From the NCBI GenBank assembly GCA_965214975.1, contig OZ244055.1, positions 452,875-516,874 on the forward strand: a stretch of DNA of 64,000 nt, given 5' to 3'. Positions 730-57,121 of the stretch are shown one piece after another. A program made the position numbers and the translations under genes. Source of the stretch: Alphaproteobacteria bacterium. Lineage in GTDB: Bacteria; Pseudomonadota; Alphaproteobacteria; MPNO01; UBA830. Below the pieces are notes generated by a model. That model had not been told where the DNA came from, did not search any database, and saw only the letters and a list, made by a program, of their open reading frames with translations. The first letter of the stretch is position 1. Every line of letters starts with the position of its first letter.

Positions 730-3700
730 ATGGGCGCGCACCGGCGAGAGAACTGCGGCACGATCTCCGGAATCCGCAACGACCGGCACGGAACCGTTCG
801 CGGCACGCCCCCCCCCCCCCGGTCCGGCGGCGAGAGCGCGGCTGGCCTGCCTGGCCCTGCCGTGCGCCGTCGCCCTGGCGGTCATGTCGCCGACGGCCGC
901 CCGGGCGCAGGTCCACGTCAGCAACGATGTTGCCGGAAACTTTTTCGTGGACGGCCCGACGCAGGGCAGCGCCTCGAGCGAGAGCACGCTCCATCTCGCC
1001 CAGCCGTTCACGACCCCTTCGGGATCCGGCGGCATCCCCCTCCGGAACGTCGTTCTGCACTTCACCTCCATGCCCCTCTCGCTCGGTCAGGTGAAACTGT
1101 ACCTGTACCGGGCCAAGGCGAACCCGAACCCCACGAGCCCCCCGGCCTTCGCCCCGACGGTTCCGGATTCGGGCACGGTCGACTCGACGACCAACGAGCC
1201 CGCGGCCGCGGGCCGGCTTGCCGAATTCGCGACCCCCGTGAGCCTGGGGGGAGGCAGGTACCGGTTCGCCGCGCCCGCGAACACCGCTCTCGACGCGGCC
1301 ACCACGTACCATCTGTATCTGTGGTCGGTGGCGAACCTGACCGGGCCCGAATGGAGATCGGTGGACATCACCAGAACCCCCGGCGGCGCTCCCGGCGACG
1401 CGGGTTTCACCGGGCACAACTCCCAGTGCCCGCCGGGCGGCTGGGCTCTCCTGCGCGGGCTGAGCGCCGACGTGAGAAACCCCGGCGGCGAGGGCTGGAT
1501 CCCCGATGGCAACGGCAGGCTCGTGTACGTCACGGAGATCGTCGGAGAGCCGAACCACACCCCCAGCGGGAGCCCGGCGATCGCGGGAACCCAGACGATC
1601 GGCGAGACGCTGACGGCCGGCCCCGGGGATCTCGCCGACCTGAACGGCGCGCTGTCGTCGTTCGTCTACGAGTGGTTCCGGACCGACGCCGACGGGACGA
1701 ACTCGCAGGCCATTCCCGGCGCGACCTCCCCGACCTACACCCCGACGGAAGACGACGAGGGCAGACGGCTCCGGGTGCAGGTGACGTTCACCGACGCCGA
1801 CTGCTACGAGCAGACGACGAGCGTCCTCGCCGCCAACACGTTCGCCGAGGGCCTGGCGCTGGAGGCGGAGGGCGGCACGGCGCAGGTCGGCAAGACCCTG
1901 ACGGCGGAGACCGGCGGCATCGCGGACGCCGACGGCCTGCCGTCCTCGCCCGCGTTCACCTACCGGTGGACGCGGGTGGACGCCGACGGCGTGTCGAACC
2001 CGGAGGACATCGCCGGCGCGACGTCGCGGACCTACACGCCGGTCGAGGCCGACGAGGGCAAGCGGGTGCGGGTGACGGTGGGTTTCGCGGATAGCGACGG
2101 CCACCGCGAGGCGGTCGGCGCCCTTTCCGCGCCGATCGCGGAAAGGGCGCCCGCGGTCATCACCGTCGCGGCGGGCGGAAGCGTGACCGAGGGCGCGCCC
2201 GCGATCTTCACGCTGACCCGCACCGAGGAGCTCGCCATCGCGCTGGCGGTCGAGGTCACGGTGTCGGAAACCGGCGACATGGTCGCCGCGGGCGACAAGG
2301 GGACGCGGACGGTGACGTTCGGCGCGGGCGCGACCACCGCGACGCTGGAGGTGCCGACCGCGGACGATTCCGCGGTCGAGCCGGACAGCACGGTGACCGT
2401 CGCCGTCCAGGACGGCGACGGCTACGTCCCGGGCACGCCGTCGGAGGCCGAGGTCGTGGCGGAGGACGACGACCCGGCCGTCACCGTCGCGGCGGGCGGC
2501 AACGTGACCGAGGGCGCGCCCGCGATCTTCACGCTGACCCGCACCAGGGACACCGCCATCGCGCTGGCGGTCGAGGTCACGGTGTCGGAAACCGGCGACA
2601 TGGTCGCCGCGGGCGACAAGGGGACGCGGACGGTGACGTTCGCAGCGGGCGCGGCCACCGCGGCGCTGGAGGTGCCGACCGCGGACGATGACGCGGACGA
2701 GCCCGACAGCACGGTGACCGTCGTCGTCGAGGACGGCGGCGCCTACGACCCGGGCACGCCTTCCGAGGCCGGGGTCGTGGCGAGGGACAACGACGGGCCT
2801 CCGGTCGTCACCGTCGCGGCGGGCGGCAACGTGACCGAGGGCGCGCCCGCGCGTTTCACGCTGATCCGCACCAAGGATCCCGCCGCCGGGCTGGCGGTCG
2901 AGGTCACGGTGTCGGAAACCGGCGACATGGTCGCCGCGGGCGACGAGGGGACGCGGACGGTGACGTTCGGCGCGGGCGCGGCCACCGCGGCGCTGGAGGT
3001 GCCGACCGTGGACGATTCGGAGCGAGAGCCGGACAGCACGGTGACCGTCGCCGTCGAGGACGGCGGCGCCTACGACCGGGGCACGCCTTCCGAGGCCGGG
3101 GTCGTGGCGTCGGACAACGACCATCCGGTCGTCACCGTCGCGGCGGACGGAGACGTGACCGAGGGCGCGCCCGCGAGCTTCACGCTGACCCGCGCCGGGG
3201 ACATCTCCGCCGCGCTGGAGGTCGAGGTCGCGGTGTCGGAAACCGGCGACATGGTCGCCGCGGGCGACGAGGGGACGCGGACGGTGACGTTCGCAGCGGG
3301 CGTGGCCACCGCGGCGCTGGCGGTGCCGACCGTGGACGATTCCGCGGACGAGCCCGACAGCACTGTGACCGTCGCCGTCGCGGACGGCGACGCCTACGAC
3401 CCGGGCACGCCTTCCACCGCCGCCGTCGTGGTGGCGGACGAAGACGAGCCGGCGGTCGTCACCGTCGCGGCGGGCGGAGACGTGACCGAGGGCGCGGCCG
3501 CGAATTTCACGCTGACCCGCACCGGGGACGCCGCCACCGCGCTGGCGGTCGAGGTCGCGGTGTCGGAAACCGGCGACATGGTCGCCACGGGCGACAAGGG
3601 GACGCGGACGGTGACGTTCGGCGCTGGCGCGGCCACCGCGGCGCTGGCGGTGCCGACCGTGGACGATTCCGCGGACGAGCCGGACAGCACGGTGACCGTC

Positions 3701-26512: not shown

Positions 26513-26827
26513 ACCTCCTGTCCGAACCATCGGTTGCCAGCCGGGCGGCCGCGCACCGGCCGCGACGCCCGGAACCGCCCGGCCGCGGGAGCGGACCGGT
26601 CCGAACGCGATTCCGGGACCGGCGCAACGTCGGCCCGGGCGCCATGGGGCCGCTCTTCCCGTCGGGGTTGCCGGCAGACCCGACGGGATCCCGGAGCGGT
26701 CCCGGTTTCCGGGGAAACCCGCCGGCCGCGGCGGGAGAATTCCGCTCGGGCGCGGAAGCTTGCGGGCAGCTTTCGGGCAACCCGGACGTTTCGTCCCGCC
26801 GCCCGGAACCGCGGGGGAGCCGCGAGA

Positions 26828-26881
26828 CCCGGTCGCGGCCGGATCCCGGCGGCAACCGTCCTCGGACCGGCATGTTCCGGC
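26828..26881. repeat. Left arm of a 54-nt imperfect inverted repeat flanking the glycosyltransferase cassette
   Basis: CCCGGTCGCGGCCGGATCCCGGCGGCAACCGTCCTCGGACCGGCATGTTCCGGC. Hand alignment to the reverse complement of 28441-28494 gives about 42/54 matches. Confidence 0.7.
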
Positions 26882-26970
26882 CCGGCCCGGCGGCTTCCGT
26901 TCGAAGGCGTCGGCCCGGGCGGGCGACCCGGAAACCCCCGCGTGCGGGACGGGGCCCCGCATGCGGGGCG

Positions 26971-28440: not shown

Positions 28441-28494
28441 GCCGGAACGCGCCAGCCCGAGGACGGCCACGACCGGGATCCGGTTGCAACCGGG
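28441..28494. repeat. Right arm of the 54-nt inverted repeat flanking the glycosyltransferase cassette
   Basis: GCCGGAACGCGCCAGCCCGAGGACGGCCACGACCGGGATCCGGTTGCAACCGGG. See 26828-26881. Confidence 0.7.
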
Positions 28495-28604
28495 CCTCAC
28501 GGCTCCCCCCTCCCACCGGAGTTCCGGGCGACGAGACGGAACGTTCCGGTCATCCGGGCCGCATCCGGGATTCCGCGTTCGAGGGGAGTTCCTTCGCCGC
28601 GGCC

Positions 28605-28627
28605 GGGGGGGGGGGGGAGAGAGAGAG
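28605..28627. repeat. Compound microsatellite G13(AG)5
   Basis: Counted directly: 13 G (28605-28617) followed by AGAGAGAGAG. On the glycosyltransferase sense strand this reads (CT)5C13. Confidence 0.95.
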
Positions 28628-29117
28628 GGTTCCGGAAATCGGCACCGTTCCGTGATTCCGTCGGGTTTCCGAAGACCCGGCGGGGAGAACGGCCCCGTGG
28701 TGCCGGGACGGGCATTGTACCGGTCCCGGCATCGCGTTCAAGCCGGCGCGCTCCCGCGGCCCGGGGAGGATCCCGGGCCGTCCGGCGGGAGACGTCGCCG
28801 TCTCGCGGCGGTTCCCGGGTTCGCGCGCGGCGGGAGCCTTCTTCCCCGTTTCCGCGGCCTGCCCGGCCGGCCGGGGACCGCGCGACGCCGGCGCGCGCGT
28901 TCGTCGCCGATTCAACCTGCCGACGACGCGCACCCCTGGCGGCACGGGATCCTGCCAGCCGGGCCGGTCCGGAACCGCGGGCGCGGGATCACCCTGCAGA
29001 AGCGCCGGGGACGGCATGCGCGAAGGCGGGTCATGGCGTAGAATGGCGCCGGGTCCGGATTCCGCCGGAGCCGCTGTTGCGGGGAACCGTTGCGGCGCGC
29101 GACTGCTGGAGGGGTCG

Positions 29118-36193: not shown

Positions 36194-36641
36194 CGGGTTC
36201 TCCCCGGGCGACCTCGGGCCGGCCGCGCGCCGCCGTTCCGTTGCGGCGCGGGCGCCGCCGCCGGACCCGCCGGCCGGCTCGCGCGATCCCGCGGGGCGAA
36301 CGCCGCCGGATCGCCGTCCGCGGGTTTCCGGGGGCGCCGTCGGTCGGCCGGATCCGGCTCGAATTCCGTCATCCGGGCGACCGGTCCGGTCCGGAACCGC
36401 GGAGCGGGATCATCCCGTTCCCGCGGCCCGAGGAAGATCCCGTGCCGTGTTCCCCACGCTCGTCATGTCCCTAGCGTCCGCCCGTCGGCATCCGTAACAG
36501 CACGGACCGCCATGCGTCAAGCGGGCCGCGGCCCCGGCCCAGGGCGATCCCACGCCCGGTTTGGTCGGCGCTTCGGGTTCCCGGCGAGGGCGGTTGGATC
36601 GGGCTCCGGCTTTTCGCCGCCGATTCGGCCAGGATGGCGGC

Positions 36642-46359: not shown

Positions 46360-46735
46360 CCCCGGCCGCGCGCGAAAGGCCTCGCCGAAGGCCGCTTCCG
46401 CGGCGAAGGGCGGCCGTTCGGGTTTCCGCGCGCGCTCCCGGGCCGACGATCCGCACCGCGTGGAGGAACGACCAGTCGGCGATGTTCCGTGTCCAGGGGG
46501 CGTCGTCGCCGAGGACCGCCCGGCGTCGCGGAAAGCCGGAGAGGATCCGGGACCGGTTTCCTGTCCGGCGACGGGTGAACCGGGCCAGTCCGGCGGGTCG
46601 TTCGGGAGCGCGTTTCGCCGGTCCGGGTGTCGGTTCGGACCTTGGGAAACGGATCCTGGTCGCACGGCAGGCGGATCCGCATCCGCCACCGGCACCCGGT
46701 CACGACAGAAAACGTTCCTGCCGCTCGACCTGAAA

Positions 46736-47646: not shown

Positions 47647-47984
47647 CTGTCCGCCCGTCGGGCGGGGGCGCGGTGAAGGCGGCGCTGAACATTCCATTGT
47701 CGATGTGGCAACGTGCCGGTCATGGTGACGCTGCCGGCCCCGGATTTGTCCATTGACCTGAGCACGGTCTCGGTGCGCCCGACCCGGGGTGCTGCGCGGG
47801 AGCACCGGCGCTGGGACCGGCTGGTGGCGGAGCACCAACCACTACCAGCGGTTCCACGGCGTCATCGGCAAGGGTCTGCGCCATGTTGCGGTGCCACGGC
47901 GATTCCGCGTTGCGGTTCCGGACCGGCGGCACCCTCGGAGCCCGCGGCGCCGTCCGGGCCCGGGAGCGTTCCGGGGCGCGTGCT

Positions 47985-50900
47985 TCAGAAGGCGACGCCG
48001 CCCTTGAGCACGACCAGGCCGTCCGGCCGGCCCCGGTCCCCGCGCCGCTCGCCGTAGAGCTCGAGGCCCGGTCCCGCGGTCCCGCGCAGCCGGAACTCCA
48101 CGCCGAGGCGGACACGGTCGTCGTCGCCGGACCGCCCCAGCTCGCCGAACGCCGTCGTCACGGCGCGGTCCCGGAGCACCCCCCACCCGTAGCCCAGGCG
48201 GGCGTCGAGGGACGCGCCGCCGCCGCCGCCGCCGCGGCCCGCGGCGCCGGGGTCGGCGTTCCACATCGCCTCGGCGACGCCGCGCGCCGGCGCGCCCCAG
48301 GACGGCGCGAGCCGGAGCCGCAGGCCGCGGCCCCGGACCCCCGGATCCCAGTCCAGCCCGAGGCCGAGGCCCCACTCCCGGAAGCCGCTTTCCTCGTGGG
48401 CCAGAAGCGCGCTGCCGCGGCCCCGGATCTCGAGACCGGCATGCGGCAGGACGTAGCCGAAGCCCAGCGCGAGGTCGGCGCCCGCGCCCCGCTCGGCGTC
48501 CCCGTCGTCGAGACGCGCGCCGAGCTCGAAACTGCCGGCGAGCTCGCCGCCGTCCGCGAGCGCGCGGCGGGAGCTTCCCTCGAGGGCCAGACGCACCCGG
48601 GACGCCGCGGCGTCGACCTCCAGGAGCTCGTCCTCCACGCCGTCCGCGGACACCGTCGCGTGGAACGCGTCGGCCTTCACCGCGAGACCGACCCCGCCGA
48701 CCGACGCGAGATCGTCCCGGACCCCGGCGGCGACCGTGCGCATCTCGACGTCGGTCCCGACCGAGCCGTCCCGGTCCGCGATCTCCGTCGAGCCCCTGCC
48801 GTAGCCGGCCGTCCCCCAGACGCCGAGACCCGTCGGCGACATCCAGTGCACGTAGGGATGCGCGCTCGTCAGGGTCGTCTCCACGGCGCCGCCGCCGTCG
48901 CCGCCGCCGAAGGCGTAGTCGATGTCGCCGACCGTGCGGCTCACCGCGACCCCGGCAAGCAGGTCGTCCCGGAAGCGGTGGTCGAGACCGAGATGCGCGG
49001 CGAAGATCCCGCCCTCGCTCGAGAATGCGCCGATCCGGTCGTCGTCCTCGTCCAGCCCGTCGCTCCCGACCTCGGTGAACGTGCCGCGGCCCCACAGCGT
49101 GAGACCGCCCGCGGCCCCGCCGTCCCCGCCGGGCGACAGCGCGAACGCCGTCCGTCCCAGCAGGTCGCGGCCGTCGGGCGGCGCCAGCCCGCGGAAGCCG
49201 TCGGCGGAACCGCCGCCGGGGCCGTGGCGGCGCTCCGCGCCGCCGGCGTCGCCGGAAACGCCGCCGACGCCGCTGACGCCCATGAGGCCGGCAAGGACGC
49301 CGGCCGCGGGCGCGCCCGGCGCCAGGGGCTGCCCGCCCACCGTCGCGCGCGAGCCGGCGTCCCCGGAGCGGTGGCTTTCGGCGCGGTCCCAGACCAGCTC
49401 GACAACGTTCGCCGCCACCGTCCGGCCGGTGGCGGCGAGAACGTACCTCAGCGCCAGCGCGCGCCTCTCGCTCCGCCCCGCGCCCAGATCGTATCTCGCC
49501 TCCCACCCCTCGTCGTTGTCGGAGACCCGGGCCGCGTCCACGTCCACGAGCCTCACGGTCGCGGCCTCGGTCTCCCCGTCGACCTCGACCGCGACCGTCA
49601 TTCCGGTGTCGCCGCGCTCGAACGTCAGGGTTCCGGCTTCCTCCTCCCCGTCGCGCGCCTTCACGTAGCCGACCCCGAGGGCTTCGCGCGCGGGCCACGG
49701 CCGGTCCAGGCCCACCGTGAACGCGACGGTCGCCGTCTCCCCGACGGCGGGCCTCTTCACCGACCCCGGCGCGGGCGCGGCCACCGACAGCACCGGCCGG
49801 GCGGCGAGCCAGTGCTCCGTTCTCCGGGGCTCCGGCAGCAGGACGTTGGTCGAGCCCGTCAGCCCGAGCTCCACCACCTCGGCGGCGTCGCCGGCCTCCA
49901 CCTCGACCGTTCTCCGGGTCTCCCCGTGCTGGAACGTCAGCAGCCCGGAAACGGCGCCGCCCCCGTCCACGACCGTCTCGTGGTCGACCGTCACCAGGTC
50001 GTCGCCCGGCCCCGTCGGCGGATCCAGCGCGACCGTGAAGGTGACGGTCCCGGCCTCGTCCGCGGCCTCCACCGACAGCCGGCGGTCGTCGTCGCGGACG
50101 GTCCCGAGACCCCGGCCCGTCCCGATCTCGTATCCCGCGGCGCTCGTGACGCTGTCCAGCGTGACCACCACGAGCCCGTCGCTCTCGGCCTCCCTGTCGC
50201 CCTCGACCGTCGCCACGATCGTCTTCGCGGTCTCCCCCGGCGCGAACGCCAGCGTGCCGGTCGTCGCGCGCATGTCCCGCTCGGCGAGCCTGACCTCCGC
50301 CGCGCCCGTCACGGTGTAGTCGACGCTCACCGGACCGTCCGCGGCTTCCGACAGCGTCACCGGGAACCGGAGTTCCGCGGGGCCCCCGTCGCCCTCGACG
50401 ACGCTCGTCGACCCGACCCAGACCGCCGGACCGGACGTCCCGCGCGCGTCGTCGTTCCGGATCGTGCCCGTCCCGCGGTGCCTGCGGAGCAGCGCCCCGC
50501 CGGTCGGGTCCGAGAGCGTGACCACGACCGTCTCGTCCAGCTCGAAAACCCCGTCGCCCTTCACCGGGACCGTGACCGTCTGCCTGGTCTCCCCCGGCGC
50601 GAACGCGACCGAACCGGCCTCGGGGGCGTCGTGGTCCCTTCCGGCCTCCGCCGTGCCCCCAACCGTGTAGTCGACGACGACCTCCCGGTCCGACGCCGGC
50701 GCCAGCGTCACCGCGAACGCCAGGTCCGTCGTCCCGGAATCGCCCTCGTCCACGCTCGGCGAGTCGATCGAGAGCGCCGATTCGTCGTCGTCCCTGATCG
50801 TGCCCGTGCCGGTGCCGGTCCCGATCGTCGCGCCGCCGGTCGCGCCCGACAGCGCGATCTCCACCGTCTCGTCGTTCTCGTCGATCCCGTCGCCCCTCGC

Positions 50901-53900
50901 CGCGACGGTGATCGTCTTGCCGCTCTCGCCGGGCGCGAACGCCAGCGTGCCGCCCGCGACCGCCTCGTAGTCCTCTCCGGAGGTCGCCGTGCCGCCTCCC
51001 GAATCCGCCCAGTCGACCGTGACCCGCCGGTCCGAGACCGGCGCCAGCGTCACCGCGAACACCAGCTCCGACGTCCCCGAATCGCCCTCCGCGACCTCGG
51101 GCGAGCCGATCGAGAGCGCCGCCTCCTCGTCGTCCGCGATCGTCCCCGCGCCGGTGGCGGTCCCGATCGTCGCGCCGCCGGTCGGGTTCGAGAGCGCGAT
51201 CTCCACCGTCTCGTCCTCCTCGTCGATCCCGTCGCCGTTCACCGCGACCGTGACCGTCCTCGTGGTGTCCCCGGGATCGAACGCCAGCGTGCCGCCCGCC
51301 ACCGCCTCGTGGTCGGTCCCGGAGGTCGCCGTGCCGCCGCCCGAATCCGCCCAGGCGACCGTGACCCGCCGGTCCCAGGCCGGCGTCAGCGTCACCGTGA
51401 ACACCAGGTCCGACGTCCCGGAATCGCCCTCGGCGACGCGCGGCGAGTCGATCGCGAGCTCGGGAGCCTCGTCGTCGACGATCGTGCCCGTGCCCGCGGC
51501 GGTCCCGACCGTCGCGCCGCCGGTCGGGTTCGAGAGCGCGATCACGACCGTCTCGTTGCCCTCGACGGCGTCGTCGCCGGTCACCCTGACCGTGACCGTC
51601 TTCGCGCTCTCGCCGGGCGCGAACGTCAGCGTGCCGTCCGCCACCGCCTCGTGGTCGGTCCCGGAGGTCGCCGTGCCGCCGCCCGAATCCGCGTAAGCGA
51701 CCGTGACCTGCTGGCGCGAGACCGGATCCAGCGTCACCGTGAACACCAGCTCCGCCGTCCCCGAATCGCCCTCGTCCACCCGCGGCGAATCGATCGAGAG
51801 CGACGGGATGTCGTCGTCGACGATCGTGCCCGTGCCCGCGGCGGTCCCGATCGTCGCGCCGCCGGTCGCGCCCGAAAGCGCGATCACGACCGTCTCGTCG
51901 GCCTCGTCGGTCCGGTCGCCGGTCACCTTGACCGTGACCGTCTTGCCGCTCTCGCCGGGCGCGAACGTCAGCGTGCCGTCCGCCACCGCCTCGTGGTCGG
52001 CGCCGGAGGTCGCCGTGCCGCTGCCCGGATCCGCGTACCCGACCGTGACCCGCCGGTCCGAGACCGGATCCAGCGTCACCGTGAACACCAGGTCCGCCGT
52101 CCCGGAATCGCCCTCGTCAACGCTCGGCGAATCGATCGCGAGCGCCGCCTCGTCGTCGTCCGCGATCGTGCCCGTGCCCGTGGGGGTCGCGATGTCCGCG
52201 CCGCCGGTCGCGCCCGAAAGCGCGATCACGACCGTCTCGTCGAGCTCGTCGATCCCGTCGCCGTTCACCCTGACCGTGACCGTCCTCGTGCTGTCCCCGG
52301 CCGCGAACGTCAGCGTGCCGCCCGCCACCGCCGCGTGGTCGGCGCCGGAGGTCGCCGTGCCGCCGCCCGAATCCGCCCAGGCGACCGTGACCTCGCTGTC
52401 CGAGACCGGATCCAGCGTCACCGTGAACACCAGGTCCGCCGGCCCCGAATCGCCCTCGGCGACGCTCGGCGAATCGATCGAGAACTGCGGGGTCTCGTTG
52501 TCGACGATCGTGCCCGTGCCCGTCGCGGTCCCGAGCGCCGCGCCGCCGGTCGCGCCCGAAAGCGCGATCTCCACCGTCTGGTTGCCCTCGCCGACGTCGT
52601 CGCCGGTCACCGTGACCGCGATCGTCTTGCTGCTCTCCCCGGCCGCGAACGTCAGCGTGCCGCCCGCCACCGCCTCGTAGTCCTCTCCGGAGGTCGCCGA
52701 GCCGCCGCCCGAATCCGCCCAGTCGACCGTGACCTGCCGGTCCGAGACCGGATCCAGCGTCACCGTGAACGTCAGCGTCGACGTCTCTCCCGCGTCGCCC
52801 TCCTCCGCCCGCGGCGAATCGATCGCGAGCGTCGCCTCGTCGTCGTCCCGGATCGTGCCCACGCCGGTCCCTTTCAGGATCTCGCCGCCTATCGGGCTCC
52901 CGAGCCCGAGCTCGACCGTCTCGTCGACCTCGTCGATCCCGTCGCCGTTCACCCGGACCGTGACCGTCTTCCTGGTCTCGCCGGGCGCGAACGCCAGCTC
53001 GGCGGAGGACACGCTCCGGTAGTCGGCGTCGGCGCCGGAGGTCGCCGTGCCGTTCCCGGAGTCCTCGTACCGGACCGAGACCTCGCTGTCCCACTCCGGC
53101 TCCAGCGTCACCGTGAACACCAGGCTGGCCGTCCCCGTGTCGCCCTCGACGACGCTCGGCGAGTTGATCGAGAACCCGGGAACCTCGTCGTCGACGATCG
53201 TGCCCGTGCCCTCGGCGGTTCCGATCGTCGCCCCGCCGGTCGCGCCCGAAAGCCGGATCACGACCGTCTCGTCGTCCTCGAAGGCGTCGTCGCCGTTCAC
53301 CGCGACCGTGACCGTCTTCGTGCTCTCGCCGGGCGCGAACGTCAGCGTGCCGCCCGCCACGGCCTCGTGGTCGGTCCCGGAGGCTGCCGTGCCGCCGCCC
53401 GAATCCGCGTACCCGACCGTGACCCGGCGGTCCGAGACCGGCTCCAGCGTCACCGTGAACACCAGGTCCGCCGTCCCGGAATCGCCCTCGTCCACCCGCG
53501 GCGAATCGATCGCGAGCGACGCCTGGTCGTTGTCCGACACCGCGACATCGGCCTCGGACGGCGAGCCCGGGTCGTGGTCGCCGCCGTCGACGACGGCGAC
53601 GGTCACCGTGCTGTTGTCCTCGTCCACGGCATCGTCCGCGGTCGGCACCTCCACCGTCGCGGTGGCCGAGTTCGCGCCGAACGTCACCGTCCGCGTCCCC
53701 TCGTCGCCCGGGGCGACCATCTTGCCCGTTTCCGAGACCGTGACCTCGACCGCCAGCGCGACCGCGAGGTGCCCGTCGCGGGTCAGCGTGAAACGCGCCG
53801 GCGCGCCCTCCGTCACGTCGCCGTCGGACGCGACGGTGACCACCGGAACGTCGTCGTCCGACACCACGACGTCGGCCTCCGAAGGCGTGCCCGGGTCGTA

Positions 53901-55199
53901 GTCGCTGCCGTCCACGACGGTGACCGTCACCGTGCTGTCCGGCTCGTCCGTGGAATCGCCCTGGGTCGGCACCGCCAGCTGAAAGACGCCCGAGTTCCTG
54001 CCGAACCTCACCGTCTTCGTTCCCTCCTCGCGCGCGGCGACCATCCTGCCCGTTTCCGACACCGTGACCTCGACCGTCAGCGCGGCGGAGCGGTTCCCGG
54101 TGCGGGTCAGGTTGAAACGCGCGGCCGTGCCCTCCGTCACGTTTCCGGCGGACTCGACGGTGACCATCGGATCGTCGTCGTCCGACACCACCACGCCGGC
54201 CTCGGACGGCGTGCCCGCGACGTAGCCGTCGCCGGCCGCGACGGCCACGGTCACCGTGCTGTCGGGCTCGGACGCGGAATCGGCCTGGGTCGGCACCGTC
54301 ACCGTCGCCGTGGCCGAGCCCGCGGCGAACGTCGCCGTCTTCGCCCCCTCCTCGCCCGCGGCGACCATGTCGCCCGTCTCCGAGACCGTGACCCCGACCT
54401 CCAGCTCGGCGGCGGTGTTCCCGGCGCGGGTCAGCGTGAAACTCGCGGCCGTGCCCTCCGTCACGTCGCCGTCGGACGCGACGGTGACGGCGGTCCCCGT
54501 GACGACGATGTCGAAGGTGACCGTGTGGGCGATGGCGGGCTCCCACTTGCTGCTGGTGGTCGTGTAGGTCACCGTCGTGGTGCCTGTCCCGGTCGGGGTG
54601 CCGGACAGGACGCGGGTGGCCGGGTCGAAGGACAGTCCGGGCGGCAACCCGGTCAGCGCGTAGCTGCGGTCTTTGTCGTTGTCGCCGGTCGTCGCCTCGA
54701 GCGTCACGGGGGTGATGCCCGTGTCCAGGTCGACGTTCAGGTTGTCCGGTGTGGGAAAAAAGTCATCGGGATAGTCAAGGAGATGAAAATCGATGTTGGC
54801 GCGCGTGGCCGTGGCGCCGGCGTCGTCGGTGACCGTGTAGTTGAAACTACGGATCACGCAGGGGATGCCCGTGCAGGAGTCGCCGTAAGCCCCCCCGGAA
54901 GAGTCGGGCGGGTTGCCGGACAGGACGCGGGTGCTCGGGTCGAAGGACAGCCCGCTGCGCGCCAGCCCGCCCACCGCGTTCACCGAGTAGGTGTAGGGTG
55001 CGGTGCCGCCGGTGGCCTCCGGCAGGGTTATGGAGATGTTCCTTCCCGAGACGAAGGCATGGTCGAAGGAGACCGCCCCCAGGGACAACGGATCCTGGGC
55101 CTGGGCGGACAACCCGGGGAGGAAGCACGCCATGACCGCCGCCGCCGACAGGAAGGCGAAGGGCCGGCGGGCGGCGGGCGGGCCGCTCCGACGACTCAC
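47985..55199 (-). CDS. Giant type Va autotransporter adhesin (He_PIG-like Ig domains, 3 type A + 10 Calx-beta repeats, C-terminal beta-barrel). The conservative start is GTG 55199; an ATG leader at 55287 is +1 out of frame across a C10 tract
   Basis: Track ORF 47985..55331. Signal peptide RRPFAFLSAAAVMACFLPGLSAQA/QD. ..GLPPGLSFDPATRVLSGTP.. Ten repeats of the IDSPxVxEGDSGT..FTVTL..V.YAD.GGGTATSG.D..AV.GTLTFAPGE..KTV.V.V.GD...E..ETV.I.LS form. The barrel ends ..LVVLKGGVAF. Confidence 0.9.
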   Translation of the reverse strand: MSRRSGPPAARRPFAFLSAAAVMACFLPGLSAQAQDPLSLGAVSFDHAFVSGRNISITLPEATGGTAPYTYSVNAVGGLARSGLSFDPSTRVLSGNPPDSSGGAYGDSCTGIPCVIRSFNYTVTDDAGATATRANIDFHLLDYPDDFFPTPDNLNVDLDTGITPVTLEATTGDNDKDRSYALTGLPPGLSFDPATRVLSGTPTGTGTTTVTYTTTSSKWEPAIAHTVTFDIVVTGTAVTVASDGDVTEGTAASFTLTRAGNTAAELEVGVTVSETGDMVAAGEEGAKTATFAAGSATATVTVPTQADSASEPDSTVTVAVAAGDGYVAGTPSEAGVVVSDDDDPMVTVESAGNVTEGTAARFNLTRTGNRSAALTVEVTVSETGRMVAAREEGTKTVRFGRNSGVFQLAVPTQGDSTDEPDSTVTVTVVDGSDYDPGTPSEADVVVSDDDVPVVTVASDGDVTEGAPARFTLTRDGHLAVALAVEVTVSETGKMVAPGDEGTRTVTFGANSATATVEVPTADDAVDEDNSTVTVAVVDGGDHDPGSPSEADVAVSDNDQASLAIDSPRVDEGDSGTADLVFTVTLEPVSDRRVTVGYADSGGGTAASGTDHEAVAGGTLTFAPGESTKTVTVAVNGDDAFEDDETVVIRLSGATGGATIGTAEGTGTIVDDEVPGFSINSPSVVEGDTGTASLVFTVTLEPEWDSEVSVRYEDSGNGTATSGADADYRSVSSAELAFAPGETRKTVTVRVNGDGIDEVDETVELGLGSPIGGEILKGTGVGTIRDDDEATLAIDSPRAEEGDAGETSTLTFTVTLDPVSDRQVTVDWADSGGGSATSGEDYEAVAGGTLTFAAGESSKTIAVTVTGDDVGEGNQTVEIALSGATGGAALGTATGTGTIVDNETPQFSIDSPSVAEGDSGPADLVFTVTLDPVSDSEVTVAWADSGGGTATSGADHAAVAGGTLTFAAGDSTRTVTVRVNGDGIDELDETVVIALSGATGGADIATPTGTGTIADDDEAALAIDSPSVDEGDSGTADLVFTVTLDPVSDRRVTVGYADPGSGTATSGADHEAVADGTLTFAPGESGKTVTVKVTGDRTDEADETVVIALSGATGGATIGTAAGTGTIVDDDIPSLSIDSPRVDEGDSGTAELVFTVTLDPVSRQQVTVAYADSGGGTATSGTDHEAVADGTLTFAPGESAKTVTVRVTGDDAVEGNETVVIALSNPTGGATVGTAAGTGTIVDDEAPELAIDSPRVAEGDSGTSDLVFTVTLTPAWDRRVTVAWADSGGGTATSGTDHEAVAGGTLAFDPGDTTRTVTVAVNGDGIDEEDETVEIALSNPTGGATIGTATGAGTIADDEEAALSIGSPEVAEGDSGTSELVFAVTLAPVSDRRVTVDWADSGGGTATSGEDYEAVAGGTLAFAPGESGKTITVAARGDGIDENDETVEIALSGATGGATIGTGTGTGTIRDDDESALSIDSPSVDEGDSGTTDLAFAVTLAPASDREVVVDYTVGGTAEAGRDHDAPEAGSVAFAPGETRQTVTVPVKGDGVFELDETVVVTLSDPTGGALLRRHRGTGTIRNDDARGTSGPAVWVGSTSVVEGDGGPAELRFPVTLSEAADGPVSVDYTVTGAAEVRLAERDMRATTGTLAFAPGETAKTIVATVEGDREAESDGLVVVTLDSVTSAAGYEIGTGRGLGTVRDDDRRLSVEAADEAGTVTFTVALDPPTGPGDDLVTVDHETVVDGGGAVSGLLTFQHGETRRTVEVEAGDAAEVVELGLTGSTNVLLPEPRRTEHWLAARPVLSVAAPAPGSVKRPAVGETATVAFTVGLDRPWPAREALGVGYVKARDGEEEAGTLTFERGDTGMTVAVEVDGETEAATVRLVDVDAARVSDNDEGWEARYDLGAGRSERRALALRYVLAATGRTVAANVVELVWDRAESHRSGDAGSRATVGGQPLAPGAPAAGVLAGLMGVSGVGGVSGDAGGAERRHGPGGGSADGFRGLAPPDGRDLLGRTAFALSPGGDGGAAGGLTLWGRGTFTEVGSDGLDEDDDRIGAFSSEGGIFAAHLGLDHRFRDDLLAGVAVSRTVGDIDYAFGGGDGGGAVETTLTSAHPYVHWMSPTGLGVWGTAGYGRGSTEIADRDGSVGTDVEMRTVAAGVRDDLASVGGVGLAVKADAFHATVSADGVEDELLEVDAAASRVRLALEGSSRRALADGGELAGSFELGARLDDGDAERGAGADLALGFGYVLPHAGLEIRGRGSALLAHEESGFREWGLGLGLDWDPGVRGRGLRLRLAPSWGAPARGVAEAMWNADPGAAGRGGGGGGASLDARLGYGWGVLRDRAVTTAFGELGRSGDDDRVRLGVEFRLRGTAGPGLELYGERRGDRGRPDGLVVLKGGVAF
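50100..54495 (-). repeat. In-frame tandem coding repeats: about 10 Calx-beta units (50100-53525) and 3 type A units (53525-54495), period about 320-345 bp
   Basis: Periodic GTGTI(V/R/A)DD(D/E) boundaries in the translation. The type A units share the SETG(D/R/K)MVA..EPDSTVTV core with adhesin 1. Confidence 0.85.
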
Positions 55200-55214
55200 T
55201 GGATCGCGCTCCAA

Positions 55215-55224
55215 GGGGGGGGGG
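55215..55224 (-). repeat. C10 (sense strand) homopolymer just upstream of the adhesin-2 signal peptide
   Basis: Counted directly: 10 consecutive G on the plus strand (55215-55224). Confidence 0.95.
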
Positions 55225-55577
55225 CACGGGACTGGTGCTGTGCACCTTTTCCGTCCCGCAGCGACCAAGCCCTGTTTTTCCCGCCATGCTTCCGTCTCCC
55301 GCTTCCTCGACCCGACCGAGAACGGACCCAAGGTAGTGCCCCCGACCGCATGGCGTCAACCGGCCCCGGGAGGTCGCGGATTGCAGGGCAGCGATCGCCG
55401 GCGTGGGCGCGGCGGAGACGGGTGGCGGACTTCCCCGATGCGGTCCGAAGCGTTCCCGCGTTGCCGGTCGGCGTGGGGCGGGCGCCGCTCGGGCGGCGAC
55501 GGGTCGGCCGACCGCGGGCTCGATGCAGCCGTGGTTGCAGAGCGTGCGGAGCCGCCGCGGAGCGTTGCGCCGGACCA

Positions 55578-55915
55578 TCAGGGCCTCGCAGGCGGCCGCG
55601 CGGTCGTGGCAGGCTTGCGGTTCCTCGGCATCGGGTGGATGACGCGCAGCGTCCCGGGCGCGCCCGCGACGATGGCGCGCTTGCAGCCGCGCCGTGCCGC
55701 GAAGGCGCGGTGCCGGGCCCCGAATCGGCGGCCCCTGGTTCTCGCCGCGCCGTGGGCGCGCTCGACGAGGACGGCGCGCAGGATCCTGGCTCTCTTGCGG
55801 GTGTGCCCCGCGCTTCGCTTTCCGGCGCTTTCGCGGTTGCCGGGACAGCGGCCGGCCCGGGAGGCGGGACGCTCCCTGGAGGCGGATGCGTTGATGTCGG
55901 CTCGATGAGGACCGC
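55578..55915 (-). pseudogene. IS110-family transposase, 3' remnant (degenerate)
   Basis: Minus-strand reading ..RESAGKRSAGHTRKRARILRAVLVERAHGAARTRGRRFGARHRAFAARRGCKRAIVAGAPGTLRVIHPM.. resembles the IS110 C-terminal SGK..G...IS..GN..LR..L...A pattern. No N-terminal part is present. Not listed as an ORF in the track. Confidence 0.35.
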
Positions 55916-56481
55916 GGTCGCGGAGTCGCGCGAGGGCAAGCAGCCCGACGGTCGCGCGAAGACCCGCGAGGCCAGGCTAGTCGCCGTGTGGTCGGCGCAA
56001 ACCTCCGCAAACCTCCATTGCCGGGGGCCAGCCACCCCGTGCAATGAAAAAAACGGACGCCCGTTCCGCGACGGGGCTTCGGGCCATGATCCGGGGGAGC
56101 CCGCCGGTCGCGGTCCGCAGGACGGGAACGGGTCCGGCGTGCTTCTGGCGCTCTCGGAGCCGTGCTCCGGCAGCGCACGGGGTCTGTTTGCCGAATCGCG
56201 GAATCTTTTTCACGGCAAACGGGACGTCCACCCGTCAACGGGACGGGCCCGCGCCGAGGCTCCGGACCGGCCCGGTCGCCCGCATGACGGGAGTCCGAGC
56301 CGGATCCGGCCGGTTGGCGGTGTCCTCGCGGACCGCCGCGACGCGGGACCGCCCCGAGCCGCCTGGATCGGACGTTCGGCCAGCGCGGGACGGTCCCGCA
56401 CCCCGATTTCCGCGGTCTTGACAGCCGCGGCGATTCCGCGCATCTTCGGATCGTGCCGCCGTTCGCTCTTCGGCGGCGGGC

Positions 56482-56557
56482 CGGGGCCGTAGCTCAGTTG
56501 GGAGAGCGCAGCGTTCGCAATGCTGAGGTCAGGGGTTCGACTCCCCTCGGCTCCACC
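56482..56557 (+). tRNA. tRNA-Ala (anticodon CGC)
   Basis: Hand-folded cloverleaf: GGGGCCG/CGGCTCC acceptor with G3:U70, anticodon loop TTCGCAA, T-arm AGGGG-TTCGACT-CCCCT, encoded CCA; 76 nt. Confidence 0.92.
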
Positions 56558-56665
56558 AGTCCCCGTGCACCATCCCCCCTTCTCCGCAGGCCTCGCCGGA
56601 GACGCGCCCGGTCACCCGAGAGCGGGCGCCTTCCCCGACGGCGGCCCGCGCGGGCCTGCCCGCCG

Positions 56666-57121
56666 TCACGACGACAGGCGGGCGATGTCCGCAAGCACCT
56701 CGTCGGGGTGGGCGGCCGGCTTGACCGTGTCGTAGGACGCGGCGACGGCTCCGTCCGGGCCGACCAGCACGGACTTGCGCGGCGAGCGTCGGCTGTCCGG
56801 TTCCGACACCCCGTAGGCCGTCGAGACGGCGCCGTCGACGTCGCTCAGCAAGTCGTAGGGGAACGCGAATTTCTCGCGGAACGCCCGGTTGTCGGCCTCG
56901 CTGTCGTAGCTGATGCCGACCACGGCCGCGTCGTGGTCGTTGAAGTCCTGGATTCGATCACGGAATCCCTTGCCTTCGATGGTTCAGCCGGGCGTGTCGG
57001 CCTTGGGATACCACCAGAGAAGCAGGTAGCGGCCGGAAAAGTCGTCCTTCCCGACCGGGATTCCATCCTGGTTGGGCAAGTTGAAGTCGGGCGCGTCGGC
57101 GCCCGCGGCGATCAGGACCAT
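56666..57121 (-). CDS. bcp: Bcp/PrxQ-type peroxiredoxin with in-frame TGA at the peroxidatic-Cys codon (candidate selenoprotein, or a pseudogene)
   Basis: Minus-strand ATG 57121: MVLIAAGADAPDFNLPNQDGIPVGKDDFSGRYLLLWWYPKADTPG-TGA-TIEGKGFRDRIQDFNDHDAAVVGISYDSEADNRAFREKFAFPYDLLSD.. The TGA (56986-56984) replaces C in the conserved PKADTPGCT motif. The track lists only the 3' part (56666..56923). Confidence 0.75.
56942..56977 (-). promoter_or_regulatory. Candidate bacterial SECIS hairpin downstream of the in-frame UGA
   Basis: mRNA sense: UGA ACCAUC GAAG gcaag GGAUUC cgugauc GAAUCC agga CUUC. A 4-bp lower and 6-bp upper stem with a 7-nt apical loop containing G and U. The loop starts 24 nt after the U of UGA. 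Confidence 0.45.

What the first reader, a model, noticed from the sequence alone, without database searches (positions are those of the whole stretch)
55199..55287. Adhesin 2: the same leader-ORF / poly-C / +1 offset layout, but with a bypass GTG start
On the minus strand, ATG 55287 follows GGGAGACGGAAGC and encodes MAGKTGLGRCGTEKVHSTSPV. It then reads PPP from the C10 run (55224-55215) and continues out of frame. The adhesin frame (LERDPVSRRSGPPAARRPFAFLSAAAVMACFLPGLSAQA/QD) is +1 relative to the leader; C9 or C12 would fuse them. Unlike adhesin 1, an in-frame GTG (55199) lies 16 nt after the run and could start a normal signal peptide (MSRRSGPPAARRPFAFL..). In that case the tract would sit in the 5' UTR/RBS region and could tune expression rather than switch it. 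The track ORF start at 55331 is a TTG in the adhesin frame, so three starts are possible. Both leaders share M-G, CGT and a terminal poly-Pro, and the DNA is recognisably related (CTGCGGCACG vs CTGCGGGACG; CAC.G.ACC.GT.C..G.GCCCCC). This suggests the leader is a conserved functional module.
Basis: partly seen in the sequence, partly recalled or inferred. Interest (0 to 1): 0.75.

Follow-up and report, generated by a model that had tools for sequence, protein, structure and literature searches.

The report
Poly-C switch in adhesin leader
Ten C's sit inside the conserved start of a giant surface-adhesin gene in an uncultured high-GC bacterium and put the real start codon out of frame, the same slippage-driven on/off layout already known from Neisseria and Bordetella autotransporters.

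Summary
C10 lies at 55224-55215 (minus strand). ATG 55287 has a Shine-Dalgarno site. The adhesin frame is +1 to the leader, so C9 or C12 would fuse them. GTG 55199 is in frame, with GGAG 9 nt upstream. The tract is not chance: this 71.6% GC window has almost no C/G runs of 7-9, yet it has runs of 10, 13 and 13.

The "leader ORF" is not a separate upstream ORF. It is the conserved N-terminal extension of the adhesin's signal peptide. Tract-less homologues (Binatia MAG locus L003/P0026, P0034, and adhesin-1 orthologue P0179) read ATG-leader-signal peptide as one frame. Tract-bearing paralogues carry C6GC6 or C19 at the same spot.

The best reading is a translational phase-variation switch by slipped-strand mispairing, sequenced in the OFF state. 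This matches nalP/mspA in Neisseria and bapC/tcfA in Bordetella. The GTG bypass is plausible, but it is not a conserved feature of the family.

No read-level or strain-level tract census was possible, because short-read assemblies of the same species break before or at these loci. The homopolymer length in a single assembly is uncertain.

Verdict: a new member of a known kind, of moderate interest.

The parts
55296..55300 (-). Shine-Dalgarno GGGAG, 8 nt upstream of ATG 55287
   Evidence: The homologous position in the Binatia MAG paralogues is GGAGGACGGAAAC-ATG.
55225..55287 (-). Leader codons 1-21 (MAGKTGLGRCGTEKVHSTSPV); this is the conserved N-terminal extension of the signal peptide and the ancestral start of the adhesin
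   Evidence: The first 14 aa are identical in P0002. M-x-E/G-K-T-x-x-G-x-x-x-T-E is kept in L003-L006 and P0034, with synonymous codon differences.
55215..55224 (-). C10 homopolymeric tract (reads PPP plus 1 nt); proposed slipped-strand switch
   Evidence: Paralogues carry C5, C6GC6 or C19 at the same site.
55209..55212 (-). GGAG, 9 nt upstream of GTG 55199 (possible SD for an internal start)
55098..55199 (-). GTG 55199 and the core signal peptide MSRRSGPPAARRPFAFLSAAAVMACFLPGLSAQA, with the cleavage motif AQA/QD read by eye
   Evidence: The h-region and AQA are nearly invariant across paralogues. No signal-peptide predictor was available.
47985..55199 (-). Adhesin 2 body, 2404 aa from the GTG: He_PIG-type N-terminal domains, 10 Calx-beta repeats and a C-terminal beta-domain ending ...GGVAF
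   Evidence: Pfam gives Calx-beta E = 7e-110 and He_PIG. GC3 is 0.94.
47988..49250 (-). Autotransporter-type translocator (beta) domain
   Evidence: 36% identity (E = 3e-46) to the beta-domain of P0025, which passes Pfam PF03797. tblastn with P0034 matches here. There is no direct Pfam hit.
730..820 (+). Sister case, adhesin 1: ATG 730 leader plus C13 (808-820), also +1 out of frame (ATG-to-anchor distance 151 nt)
   Evidence: The orthologue P0179/L010 has the leader fused in frame and no tract.
28605..28617 (-). Third long tract in the window: (CT)5-C13, about 105 nt upstream of the GT2/TPR glycosyltransferase start at 28500
   Evidence: The other-strain contig ends in degraded sequence at this tract.

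Best explanation
The C10 run lies inside the coding sequence of the adhesin preprotein, within a roughly 30-residue conserved N-terminal extension that precedes the core signal peptide. Translation normally starts at ATG 55287, which has an SD. With C9 or C12 the ribosome reads leader-PPP(P)-LERDPVSRR-signal peptide-adhesin, and the 2400-residue Calx-beta autotransporter is exported. With C10, as sequenced, the ribosome runs +1 out of frame for 146 codons and no adhesin is made from that start. Slipped-strand mispairing during replication changes the tract by +/-1 at high frequency, so a population holds ON and OFF cells. This is translational phase variation at a contingency locus. Shown here: the anatomy, the non-random tract, the conservation and coding nature of the leader, contiguity of leader and signal peptide in tract-less homologues, and tract length and frame differences among paralogues. 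Inferred: that the tract actually slips in this organism, that switching is reversible, and that the sequenced state is truly C10. GTG 55199 may add a tract-independent, probably weaker, route to a protein with a normal-length signal peptide, making OFF leaky.
For: (1) The tract is an outlier against the genome's own run-length distribution. All three runs of 10 or more in 64 kb sit at 5' ends of surface-related genes: two autotransporters and a glycosyltransferase. (2) Homologues without a tract read ATG-leader-signal peptide as one ORF. These are L001/L003 = P0001/P0026 (GGGAGGAGGAAAC-ATG...), P0034 and the adhesin-1 orthologue P0179/L010. P0002 has the identical first 14 residues, MAGKTGLGRCGTEK, then APPP fused in frame to RRDPVSR...signal peptide. 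(3) Four paralogues in one Binatia MAG carry C5, C6GC6, C19+(CA)4 and C19+(CA)5 at the same position. Their ATG-to-anchor distances are 135, 141, 160 and 156 nt, so both in-frame and out-of-frame states occur. Within the leader region, all length differences between these 91-93% identical copies except one 7-nt insertion fall in the C/CA/G repeat block. (4) Leader codons differ synonymously between homologues (AAA/AAG, ACA/ACG, CCT/CCG), which indicates translation in the ATG frame. (5) The adhesin frame has no coding signal upstream of about 55200, so TTG 55331 is not the start. (6) Downstream of the tract the ORF is intact, with GC3 0.94 and 10 good Calx-beta domains, as expected for a reversible OFF state rather than decay. 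(7) Precedents exist: poly-C tracts of 6-15 bp in the coding sequence switch the nalP and mspA autotransporters (PMC3723659, PMC5472700), and bapC G11 is out of frame in the reference genome and varies within single colonies of high-GC B. pertussis (PMC1891110).
Against: There is no tract-length census at this locus. The second assembly of the same species (99.4% identical) ends at 46455 and 56501 and does not cover the tract. At the third tract its contig ends in degraded sequence. Homopolymer length in a single, probably long-read, assembly may be off by one, so the OFF call is uncertain. Both window adhesins are off by the same +1, which could reflect a systematic error. GTG 55199 with its SD could make the switch irrelevant or leaky. 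Several family members carry frameshifts outside homopolymers (L004, L006, L010; probably P0002), so decay rather than switching affects part of the family. Open frames are weak evidence at 72% GC.
Confidence: 0.68

Rival explanations
1. Bypass or tuning model. The functional start in this lineage is GTG 55199 (SD GGAG, 34-residue signal peptide). The tract then lies upstream of the gene. It only modulates expression, for example through ribosomes from ATG 55287 reading across the GTG start, or through the spacing of upstream signals.
For: GTG is in frame, GGAG sits 9 nt upstream, and the n-region (RRSGPPAARR), h-region and AQA motif are all present. The GC3 signal begins at about 55200. P0002 keeps Val at this position. 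L005, which is out of frame from its ATG, is intact from the homologous GTG.
Against: The ATG-leader is conserved as protein and is contiguous with the signal peptide in tract-less homologues. In L004 and L006 the homologous GTG is not in the signal-peptide frame. The position is Ala in P0034 and Trp in L003. Adhesin 1 has no such start. In the C10 state, ribosomes from the ATG would translate across the GTG and its SD for 146 codons.
Confidence: 0.15
2. Assembly artefact. The true tract is C9 or C12 and stable. The gene is simply ON, with a short poly-proline in its signal-peptide extension, and the +1 offset is a homopolymer consensus error.
For: Both window adhesins are off by exactly the same +1, with 151 nt in each. 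Homopolymers of 10-13 are error-prone on long-read platforms (own knowledge). The short-read assembly of the sister strain ends in degraded sequence at the one long tract it reaches.
Against: The rest of the window shows no broken genes at shorter runs. The apparent break in the peroxiredoxin is a TGA at the catalytic Cys, not a frameshift. Even a true C9-C13 tract would be slippage-prone by analogy with nalP, mspA and bapC. Paralogues show widely different tract lengths.
Confidence: 0.1
3. Recoding. The +1 layout is read through without any DNA change, either by +1 ribosomal slippage of tRNA-Pro on CCC-C or by RNA polymerase stuttering on the C run. The 'OFF' allele would then give a set fraction of full-length adhesin.
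For: All three out-of-frame family members seen (adh1, adh2, L005) need +1. CCC-C is a known +1-prone context that is held in frame by EF-P and m1G37 (own knowledge).
Against: There is no 0-frame stop or stimulatory structure near the tract. The RNA fold is no better than shuffles (z = +1.2), and the 0 frame runs 146 codons. The L005 offset comes from a 7-nt insertion, not the tract. In-frame and tract-less paralogues exist, so frameshifting is not required for the family.
Confidence: 0.04
4. Decay. Adhesin 2 is a recently inactivated pseudogene, and the tract is a mutational scar rather than a switch.
For: L004, L006, L010 and probably P0002 carry frameshifts outside long homopolymers.
Against: A 7.2 kb ORF with GC3 0.94 and 10 high-scoring Calx-beta repeats is intact. 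The only lesion is at a tract where one slip restores the frame, and the same design recurs in adhesin 1.
Confidence: 0.03

Closest known systems
[quoted passage not shown]
   Same: Both are type Va autotransporters with a poly-C tract of similar length (6-15 bp reported) inside the ORF. Changes of +/-1 switch translation ON or OFF, and many isolates are sequenced in the OFF state (PMC3723659, PMC5472700).
   Different: Here the host is an uncultured, 72% GC environmental lineage, not a host-restricted pathogen. The tract lies in a conserved N-terminal extension upstream of the core signal peptide. A downstream in-frame GTG with an SD exists. No strain census is available.
Bordetella pertussis bapC and tcfA homopolymeric tracts
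   Same: High-GC genome and autotransporter genes. G/C tracts of 9-14 in the coding region, near the 5' end in bapC. The reference allele (G11) is out of frame and one contraction restores it. Mixed alleles occur within single colonies (PMC1891110).
   Different: In Bordetella, variation was shown experimentally; here it is only inferred. Passenger domains are unrelated (Calx-beta/He_PIG here).
Neisseria AutA/AutB (AAGC repeats just after the start codon)
   Same: The repeat is placed at the extreme 5' end of an autotransporter ORF, so the start codon is uncoupled from the body of the gene. Many alleles are additionally disrupted elsewhere (PMC5472700), as in L004, L006 and L010.
   Different: It is a tetranucleotide repeat, not a homopolymer.
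Extended signal peptide region (ESPR, Pfam PF13018) of large autotransporters and TpsA proteins
   Same: A conserved N-terminal extension of about 25-30 residues precedes an otherwise normal Sec signal peptide of a very large type V passenger, for a total of about 64 residues here.
   Different: There is no sequence match to the ESPR model at E <= 10, and the motif here (M-x-E/G-K-T-x-x-G-x-C-x-T-E) is unrelated. The role in secretion is untested.
Haemophilus influenzae lic1 (repeat tract with alternative start codons) - from own knowledge
   Same: A repeat tract is combined with more than one usable start codon, so tract length can select between strong, weak and no expression rather than a pure ON/OFF.
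   Different: In lic1 the alternative starts lie upstream of the repeat in different frames. Here the second start lies downstream of the tract and would be independent of tract length.

Membership tests
[quoted passage not shown] | Homopolymer longer than expected for the genome's composition | tested here: met
   C10, where runs of 8-9 are absent and only one run of 7 exists in 64 kb. Markov expectation for >=10 is 0.56; the observed count of runs >=10 is 3, two of them C/G13.
[quoted passage not shown] | Tract lies between the functional start codon and the body of the ORF, so +/-1 changes the frame | tested here: met
   The start codon is anchored by homologues with a contiguous leader and signal peptide. 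ATG-to-anchor distance is 151 nt, mod 3 = 1.
[quoted passage not shown] | Tract length differs between strains, or within a population, at the same locus | not testable with these tools
   Contigs of the sister strain stop at 46455 and 56501. No reads are available. Only paralogue-level variation was seen: C5, C6GC6, C10, C13, C19, C19.
[quoted passage not shown] | Reversible ON/OFF switching of the product | not testable with these tools
   This needs culture or reporter work.
Type Va (classical) autotransporter | C-terminal beta-barrel translocator domain (Pfam PF03797) | tested here: inconclusive
   There is no direct Pfam or NCBIfam hit. The last 417 residues align end to end (36% identity, E = 3e-46) with P0025, whose domain passes PF03797 (37 bits against a cutoff of 26). 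P0026 and P0034 also pass. The protein ends in an aromatic residue (F).
Type Va (classical) autotransporter | N-terminal Sec signal peptide and a large repetitive passenger | tested here: met
   n-region, h-region and AQA motif read from the sequence. 10 Calx-beta plus He_PIG domains. No signal-peptide predictor was available.
ESPR extended signal peptide (PF13018) | Match to the ESPR sequence model at the N-terminus | tested here: not met
   No hit at E <= 10 for the fused N-termini of adhesin 2, adhesin 1 or P0026. The resemblance is architectural only.
Regulatory upstream (leader) ORF | Independent short ORF with its own stop, conserved as a separate unit from the main ORF | tested here: not met
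   In tract-less or in-frame homologues the leader has no stop and continues into the signal peptide. In the window it runs 146 codons into the adhesin gene.
Programmed +1 ribosomal frameshift (prfB-type) | Slippery site with a 0-frame stop or pause signal and a stimulator | tested here: not met
   No nearby 0-frame stop, and no stable structure (z = +1.2). Only the slippery CCC-C context is present.

The most novel reading that the evidence does not exclude
The +1 configuration is not 'OFF' but a recoding device. Ribosomes, or RNA polymerase, slip +1 on the C run at a rate set by tRNA-Pro m1G37 and EF-P status. Adhesin output from C10 and C13 alleles would then report the cell's translational state, with the downstream GTG providing a second isoform that has a short signal peptide. 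Both window adhesins and L005 share the +1 offset, which the evidence does not exclude as more than coincidence.
Probability: 0.05. Interest if true: 0.75.

Novelty: new member of a known kind. Interest (0 to 1): 0.4.

Why it matters
Homopolymer contingency loci have been studied almost entirely in host-adapted pathogens. Here the same design appears at least five times: two adhesins and a glycosyltransferase in this window, and two C19 paralogues in a Binatia MAG. These are uncultured, roughly 70% GC environmental bacteria, which suggests that stochastic switching of surface proteins is also used outside pathogens, for example against phages, grazers or hosts. There is also a practical lesson. 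Gene callers mis-annotate these genes (TTG 55331; the 438-aa chimera P0002), and short-read assemblies break at the tracts. Such loci are therefore systematically lost or misread in metagenome catalogues. The conserved signal-peptide extension is a candidate functional analogue of ESPR that could be tested.

Tried and rejected
(1) A strain-level tract census failed. Exact-protein look-ups found a second assembly of the same species (GCA_964347355.1, 99.4% identical) and an ENA sample. Their contigs stop at window 46455, 56501 and 57027 and never reach the adhesin-2 tract. At the third tract the contig ends in degraded, C-converted sequence, so it is unusable for length.
(2) Look-ups of P0002, of the 2448-aa TTG product and of the 483-aa MFS ORF returned nothing.
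(3) A JGI metagenome scan with the leader/signal-peptide alignment gave 543 pattern hits but none confirmed.
(4) A profile search with the 86-column leader+SP alignment returned nothing, not even the known members.
(5) The representative-library search was swamped by He_PIG repeat proteins. Only P0034 and P0082 were informative.
(6) An RNA structure around the tract that could sequester either SD was rejected: z = +1.2.
(7) No sigma-70-like promoter was found in 55100-56700. Apart from the tRNA-Ala gene at 56483-56558, which also scored as tmRNA, only sub-threshold, probably chance Rfam matches fall in 55100-57100; one (Metazoa_SRP, 14.8 bits against a gathering score of 70, E = 0.46) overlaps the leader at 55220-55343.
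(8) A genomic-island reading of the adhesin-2 locus was not pursued. No direct repeat of the tRNA-Ala was found near 46.4-48.1 kb.
(9) Homology between the adhesin-1 and adhesin-2 leaders was rejected (E = 17).
(10) ESPR membership was rejected.
Full report
**1. The observation**

The window is 71.6% GC. Read on the minus strand, the region contains, in order:
- GGGAGACGGAAGC at 55300-55288
- ATG at 55287
- 21 codons encoding MAGKTGLGRCGTEKVHSTSPV
- a C10 run at 55224-55215
- TTGGAGCGCGATCCA
- GTG at 55199
- a textbook signal peptide, SRRSGPPAARRPFAFLSAAAVMACFLPGLSAQA/QD

From the ATG, the frame reads PPP through the tract. It then continues out of frame to a stop at 54849-54847, giving 146 aa. 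The distance from the ATG to the conserved signal-peptide anchor GTCATGGCGTGC is 151 nt (mod 3 = 1). The adhesin frame is therefore +1, and C9 or C12 would fuse the two. GTG 55199 is in the adhesin frame, and GGAG lies 9 nt upstream. TTG 55331 is only the first start codon of the longest mechanical ORF, 47985..55331.

**2. Is the tract more than chance?**

A composition-only model would allow about 2.6 C/G runs of 10 or more in 64 kb. The genome itself, however, avoids such runs strongly.

| Run length | Observed | Markov expectation |
|---|---|---|
| 6 | 17 | 53 |
| 7 | 1 | 15.7 |
| 8 | 0 | 4.8 |
| 9 | 0 | 1.3 |
| 10 | 1 | 0.42 |
| 13 | 2 | 0.01 |

The expectation for all runs of 10 or more is 0.56; three are observed. 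The three long runs all sit at the 5' ends of surface-related genes:
- adhesin 1 (C13, 808-820)
- adhesin 2 (C10)
- a GT2/TPR glycosyltransferase ((CT)5-C13, 28605-28617 and flanking)

The distribution is bimodal, which is the signature of maintained tracts.

**3. What the gene is**

From the GTG the product is 2404 aa. It has He_PIG-type N-terminal domains and ten Calx-beta repeats (E = 7e-110). Its C-terminal 417 residues align end to end with the beta-domain of P0025 (36% identity, E = 3e-46). P0025 passes Pfam PF03797, as do the relatives P0026 and P0034. The window proteins themselves get no direct PF03797 hit, so autotransporter membership rests on transitive homology plus the terminal Phe. 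GC3 is 0.94 across the ORF. Third-position GC falls to background upstream of about 55200.

**4. What the "leader" is**

This is the key result. A search with the N-terminal region found two relatives that carry the leader.
- P0001/P0026 starts MAEKTEPGHGRTERVSPVPGPQSW...RRLLAFLSVAVVMACLFPGLSAQAQE. Leader and signal peptide form one ORF with no long C run. The DNA reads GGGAGGAGGAAAC-ATG.
- P0002 contains ...MAGKTGLGRCGTEKARGAIPAPPPRRDPVSRPRGLPARRPFAFLS... Its first 14 leader residues are identical to the window's, and the leader is fused in frame.

A scan of 185,579 species-representative genomes found four paralogous loci. All are in one Candidatus Binatia MAG, OZ243984.1. All four have the same SD-ATG-leader layout.

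| Locus | Repeat at the tract position | ATG-to-anchor distance | Frame |
|---|---|---|---|
| L003 | C5 | 135 nt | in frame |
| L004 | C6GC6 | 141 nt | in frame |
| L006 | C19 + (CA)5 + G5 | 156 nt | in frame |
| L005 | C19 + (CA)4 + G4 | 160 nt | +1 out of frame |

Further family members point the same way:
- A further member, P0034 (1421 aa, carries PF03797), reads (V)TEKTKLGHCRAEKTPPS...signal peptide in one frame.
- For adhesin 1, the orthologue P0179/L010 reads MDTHRRGAPMISEIRNDPHGTGRGGRTGVAARARL...signal peptide in one frame. The window's C13 corresponds to an insertion relative to it.
- Leader codons differ synonymously between homologues (AAA/AAG, ACA/ACG, CCT/CCG), so the ATG frame is translated.

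The "leader ORF" is therefore the conserved N-terminal extension of the preprotein. The tract lies inside the coding sequence. TTG 55331 is an annotation artefact.

**5. How it most likely works**

The anatomy is that of a translational contingency locus. A slippage-prone homopolymer sits between a conserved start codon and the body of a surface-protein gene. One-base changes toggle the frame. As sequenced, adhesin 2 (C10) and adhesin 1 (C13) are both OFF by +1. The very different tract lengths in otherwise 91-93% identical paralogues fit a hypermutable site, as does the concentration of length differences in the C/CA/G repeat block.

Direct precedents are known:
- poly-C tracts of 6-15 bp in the coding sequences of nalP and mspA (PMC3723659, PMC5472700)
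- G/C tracts in the autotransporter genes bapC and tcfA of high-GC B. pertussis, where the reference bapC allele (G11) is out of frame and alleles mix within single colonies (PMC1891110)

The steps not shown here are actual slippage, reversibility, and the true tract length in the population.

**6. The bypass GTG**

GTG 55199 has a reasonable SD and would give a complete 34-residue signal peptide. P0002 keeps Val there. The comparative evidence is otherwise against a designed bypass:
- In L004 and L006 the homologous GTGAGTCGT is read as (C)GT GAG TCG, so it is out of the signal-peptide frame.
- It comes into frame in L005 only because of a 7-nt insertion.
- The position is Ala in P0034 and Trp in L003.
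- Adhesin 1 has no equivalent start.
- In the C10 state, ribosomes from the ATG read across the GTG and its SD.

I therefore rate the bypass as a possible source of leakiness (0.15), not a conserved part of the module. The RNA around the tract has no unusual structure (z = +1.2).

**7. Caveats**

No read-level or strain-level census was possible. A second assembly of the same species (99.4% identity) ends at 46455 and 56501 and does not reach the tract. At the glycosyltransferase tract its contig ends in degraded sequence. This is itself consistent with a long, problematic homopolymer there, but it is useless for measuring length.

A one-base consensus error at a C10 or C13 run cannot be excluded. 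Both adhesins being off by the same +1 is compatible with that. Several family members also carry frameshifts outside homopolymers: L004, L006, L010, and probably P0002. Part of the family is therefore decaying, or those assemblies contain errors.

**8. Comparison and novelty**

The locus works like nalP, mspA and bapC. The N-terminal extension is architecturally like ESPR but does not match its model. It is not a regulatory uORF and not a prfB-type frameshift site.

What is new is the setting and the recurrence:
- an uncultured, roughly 70% GC lineage, whose only leader-bearing relatives among species representatives were in Candidatus Binatota
- recurrence of the SD-ATG-leader-poly-C module across paralogues and genomes

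Verdict: a new member of a known kind, interest 0.4.

Noticed in passing
window 56666-57121 (-), TGA at 56986-56984: A BCP/PrxQ-type peroxiredoxin (Pfam AhpC-TSA) has an in-frame TGA exactly at the catalytic Cys (YPKADTPG-TGA-T). A hairpin, GGAUUC-N7-GAAUCC, starts 18 nt downstream. It is probably a selenocysteine peroxiredoxin, which gene callers split into fragments of 45 and 85 aa.
   Followed up: partly
window 28500-28740 (-), tract 28605-28617: A (CT)5-C13 compound repeat lies about 105 nt upstream of the GTG 28500 start of a TPR+GT2 glycosyltransferase. A 71-codon upstream ORF (ATG near 28715) runs through the tract and ends in a GTGA overlap with the start codon. A TTGAAC-N16-TACAAT promoter-like site sits at 28740-28713. 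This is possibly a third phase-variable unit, of a different design.
   Followed up: partly
window 26556-26905 (+) versus 28451-28789 (-): An inverted, 69% identical copy of the glycosyltransferase 5' region lies at the 3' end of the same gene. It lacks the (CT)5-C13 repeat and has GCG in place of the GTG start. Its meaning is unknown.
   Followed up: partly
L011:1-80 (GCA_964347355.1 contig 317), equivalent to window 28543-28620: In the sister strain's short-read assembly the contig ends at the third tract, reads G7CGG instead of G13, and then degrades into C-converted sequence. This shows how such tracts break or corrupt assemblies.
   Followed up: yes
window 56483-56558 (+); contig ends at 46455 and 56501: A tRNA-Ala(CGC) gene lies 1.2 kb upstream of the adhesin-2 leader. 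Contigs of the sister strain end inside this tRNA and just after rpsD, bracketing the whole 10 kb adhesin-2 locus. That would fit a strain-variable segment, but no tRNA-derived direct repeat was found.
   Followed up: partly
window 56010-56219 (-): A non-coding block is shared with the region upstream of the paralogue P0002 (81% identity over 70 translated residues; about 90% at the DNA level is my estimate, since P0002's DNA was not retrievable). It contains a terminator-like hairpin followed by a T7 run at 56075-56050. Other pieces of P0002's upstream region match 28776-28936, upstream of the glycosyltransferase tract.
   Followed up: partly
window 56237-56312 versus 36345-36419: A 76-nt repeat (85.5% identity) is shared between the adhesin-2 upstream region and another intergenic site. 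Shorter matches lie upstream of the glycosyltransferase.
   Followed up: no
L005:5963-5995 and L006:6048-6080 (Binatia MAG OZ243984.1): These are compound repeats, C19 followed by (CA)4-5 and G4-5, in the leaders of two paralogues. L005 also has a 7-nt insertion, L006 a 2-nt deletion about 700 nt into the gene, and L004 a 1-nt deletion about 2.4 kb in, none of them at long homopolymers. Three of the four paralogues in that genome are therefore disrupted as assembled.
   Followed up: partly
window 54890-54896 (G7 on the minus strand, codons SSGGAY): This is the only run of 7 in the window and it lies inside the adhesin-2 coding sequence. It is close to the position where the reading frame of the paralogue P0002 breaks (after ...VLSGTAPP). 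It could be a second slippage site, or coincidence.
   Followed up: partly
window 47883..56492 (+): A 2869-codon ORF lies antisense to adhesin 2. It reminds us that open frames carry little weight at 72% GC.
   Followed up: no
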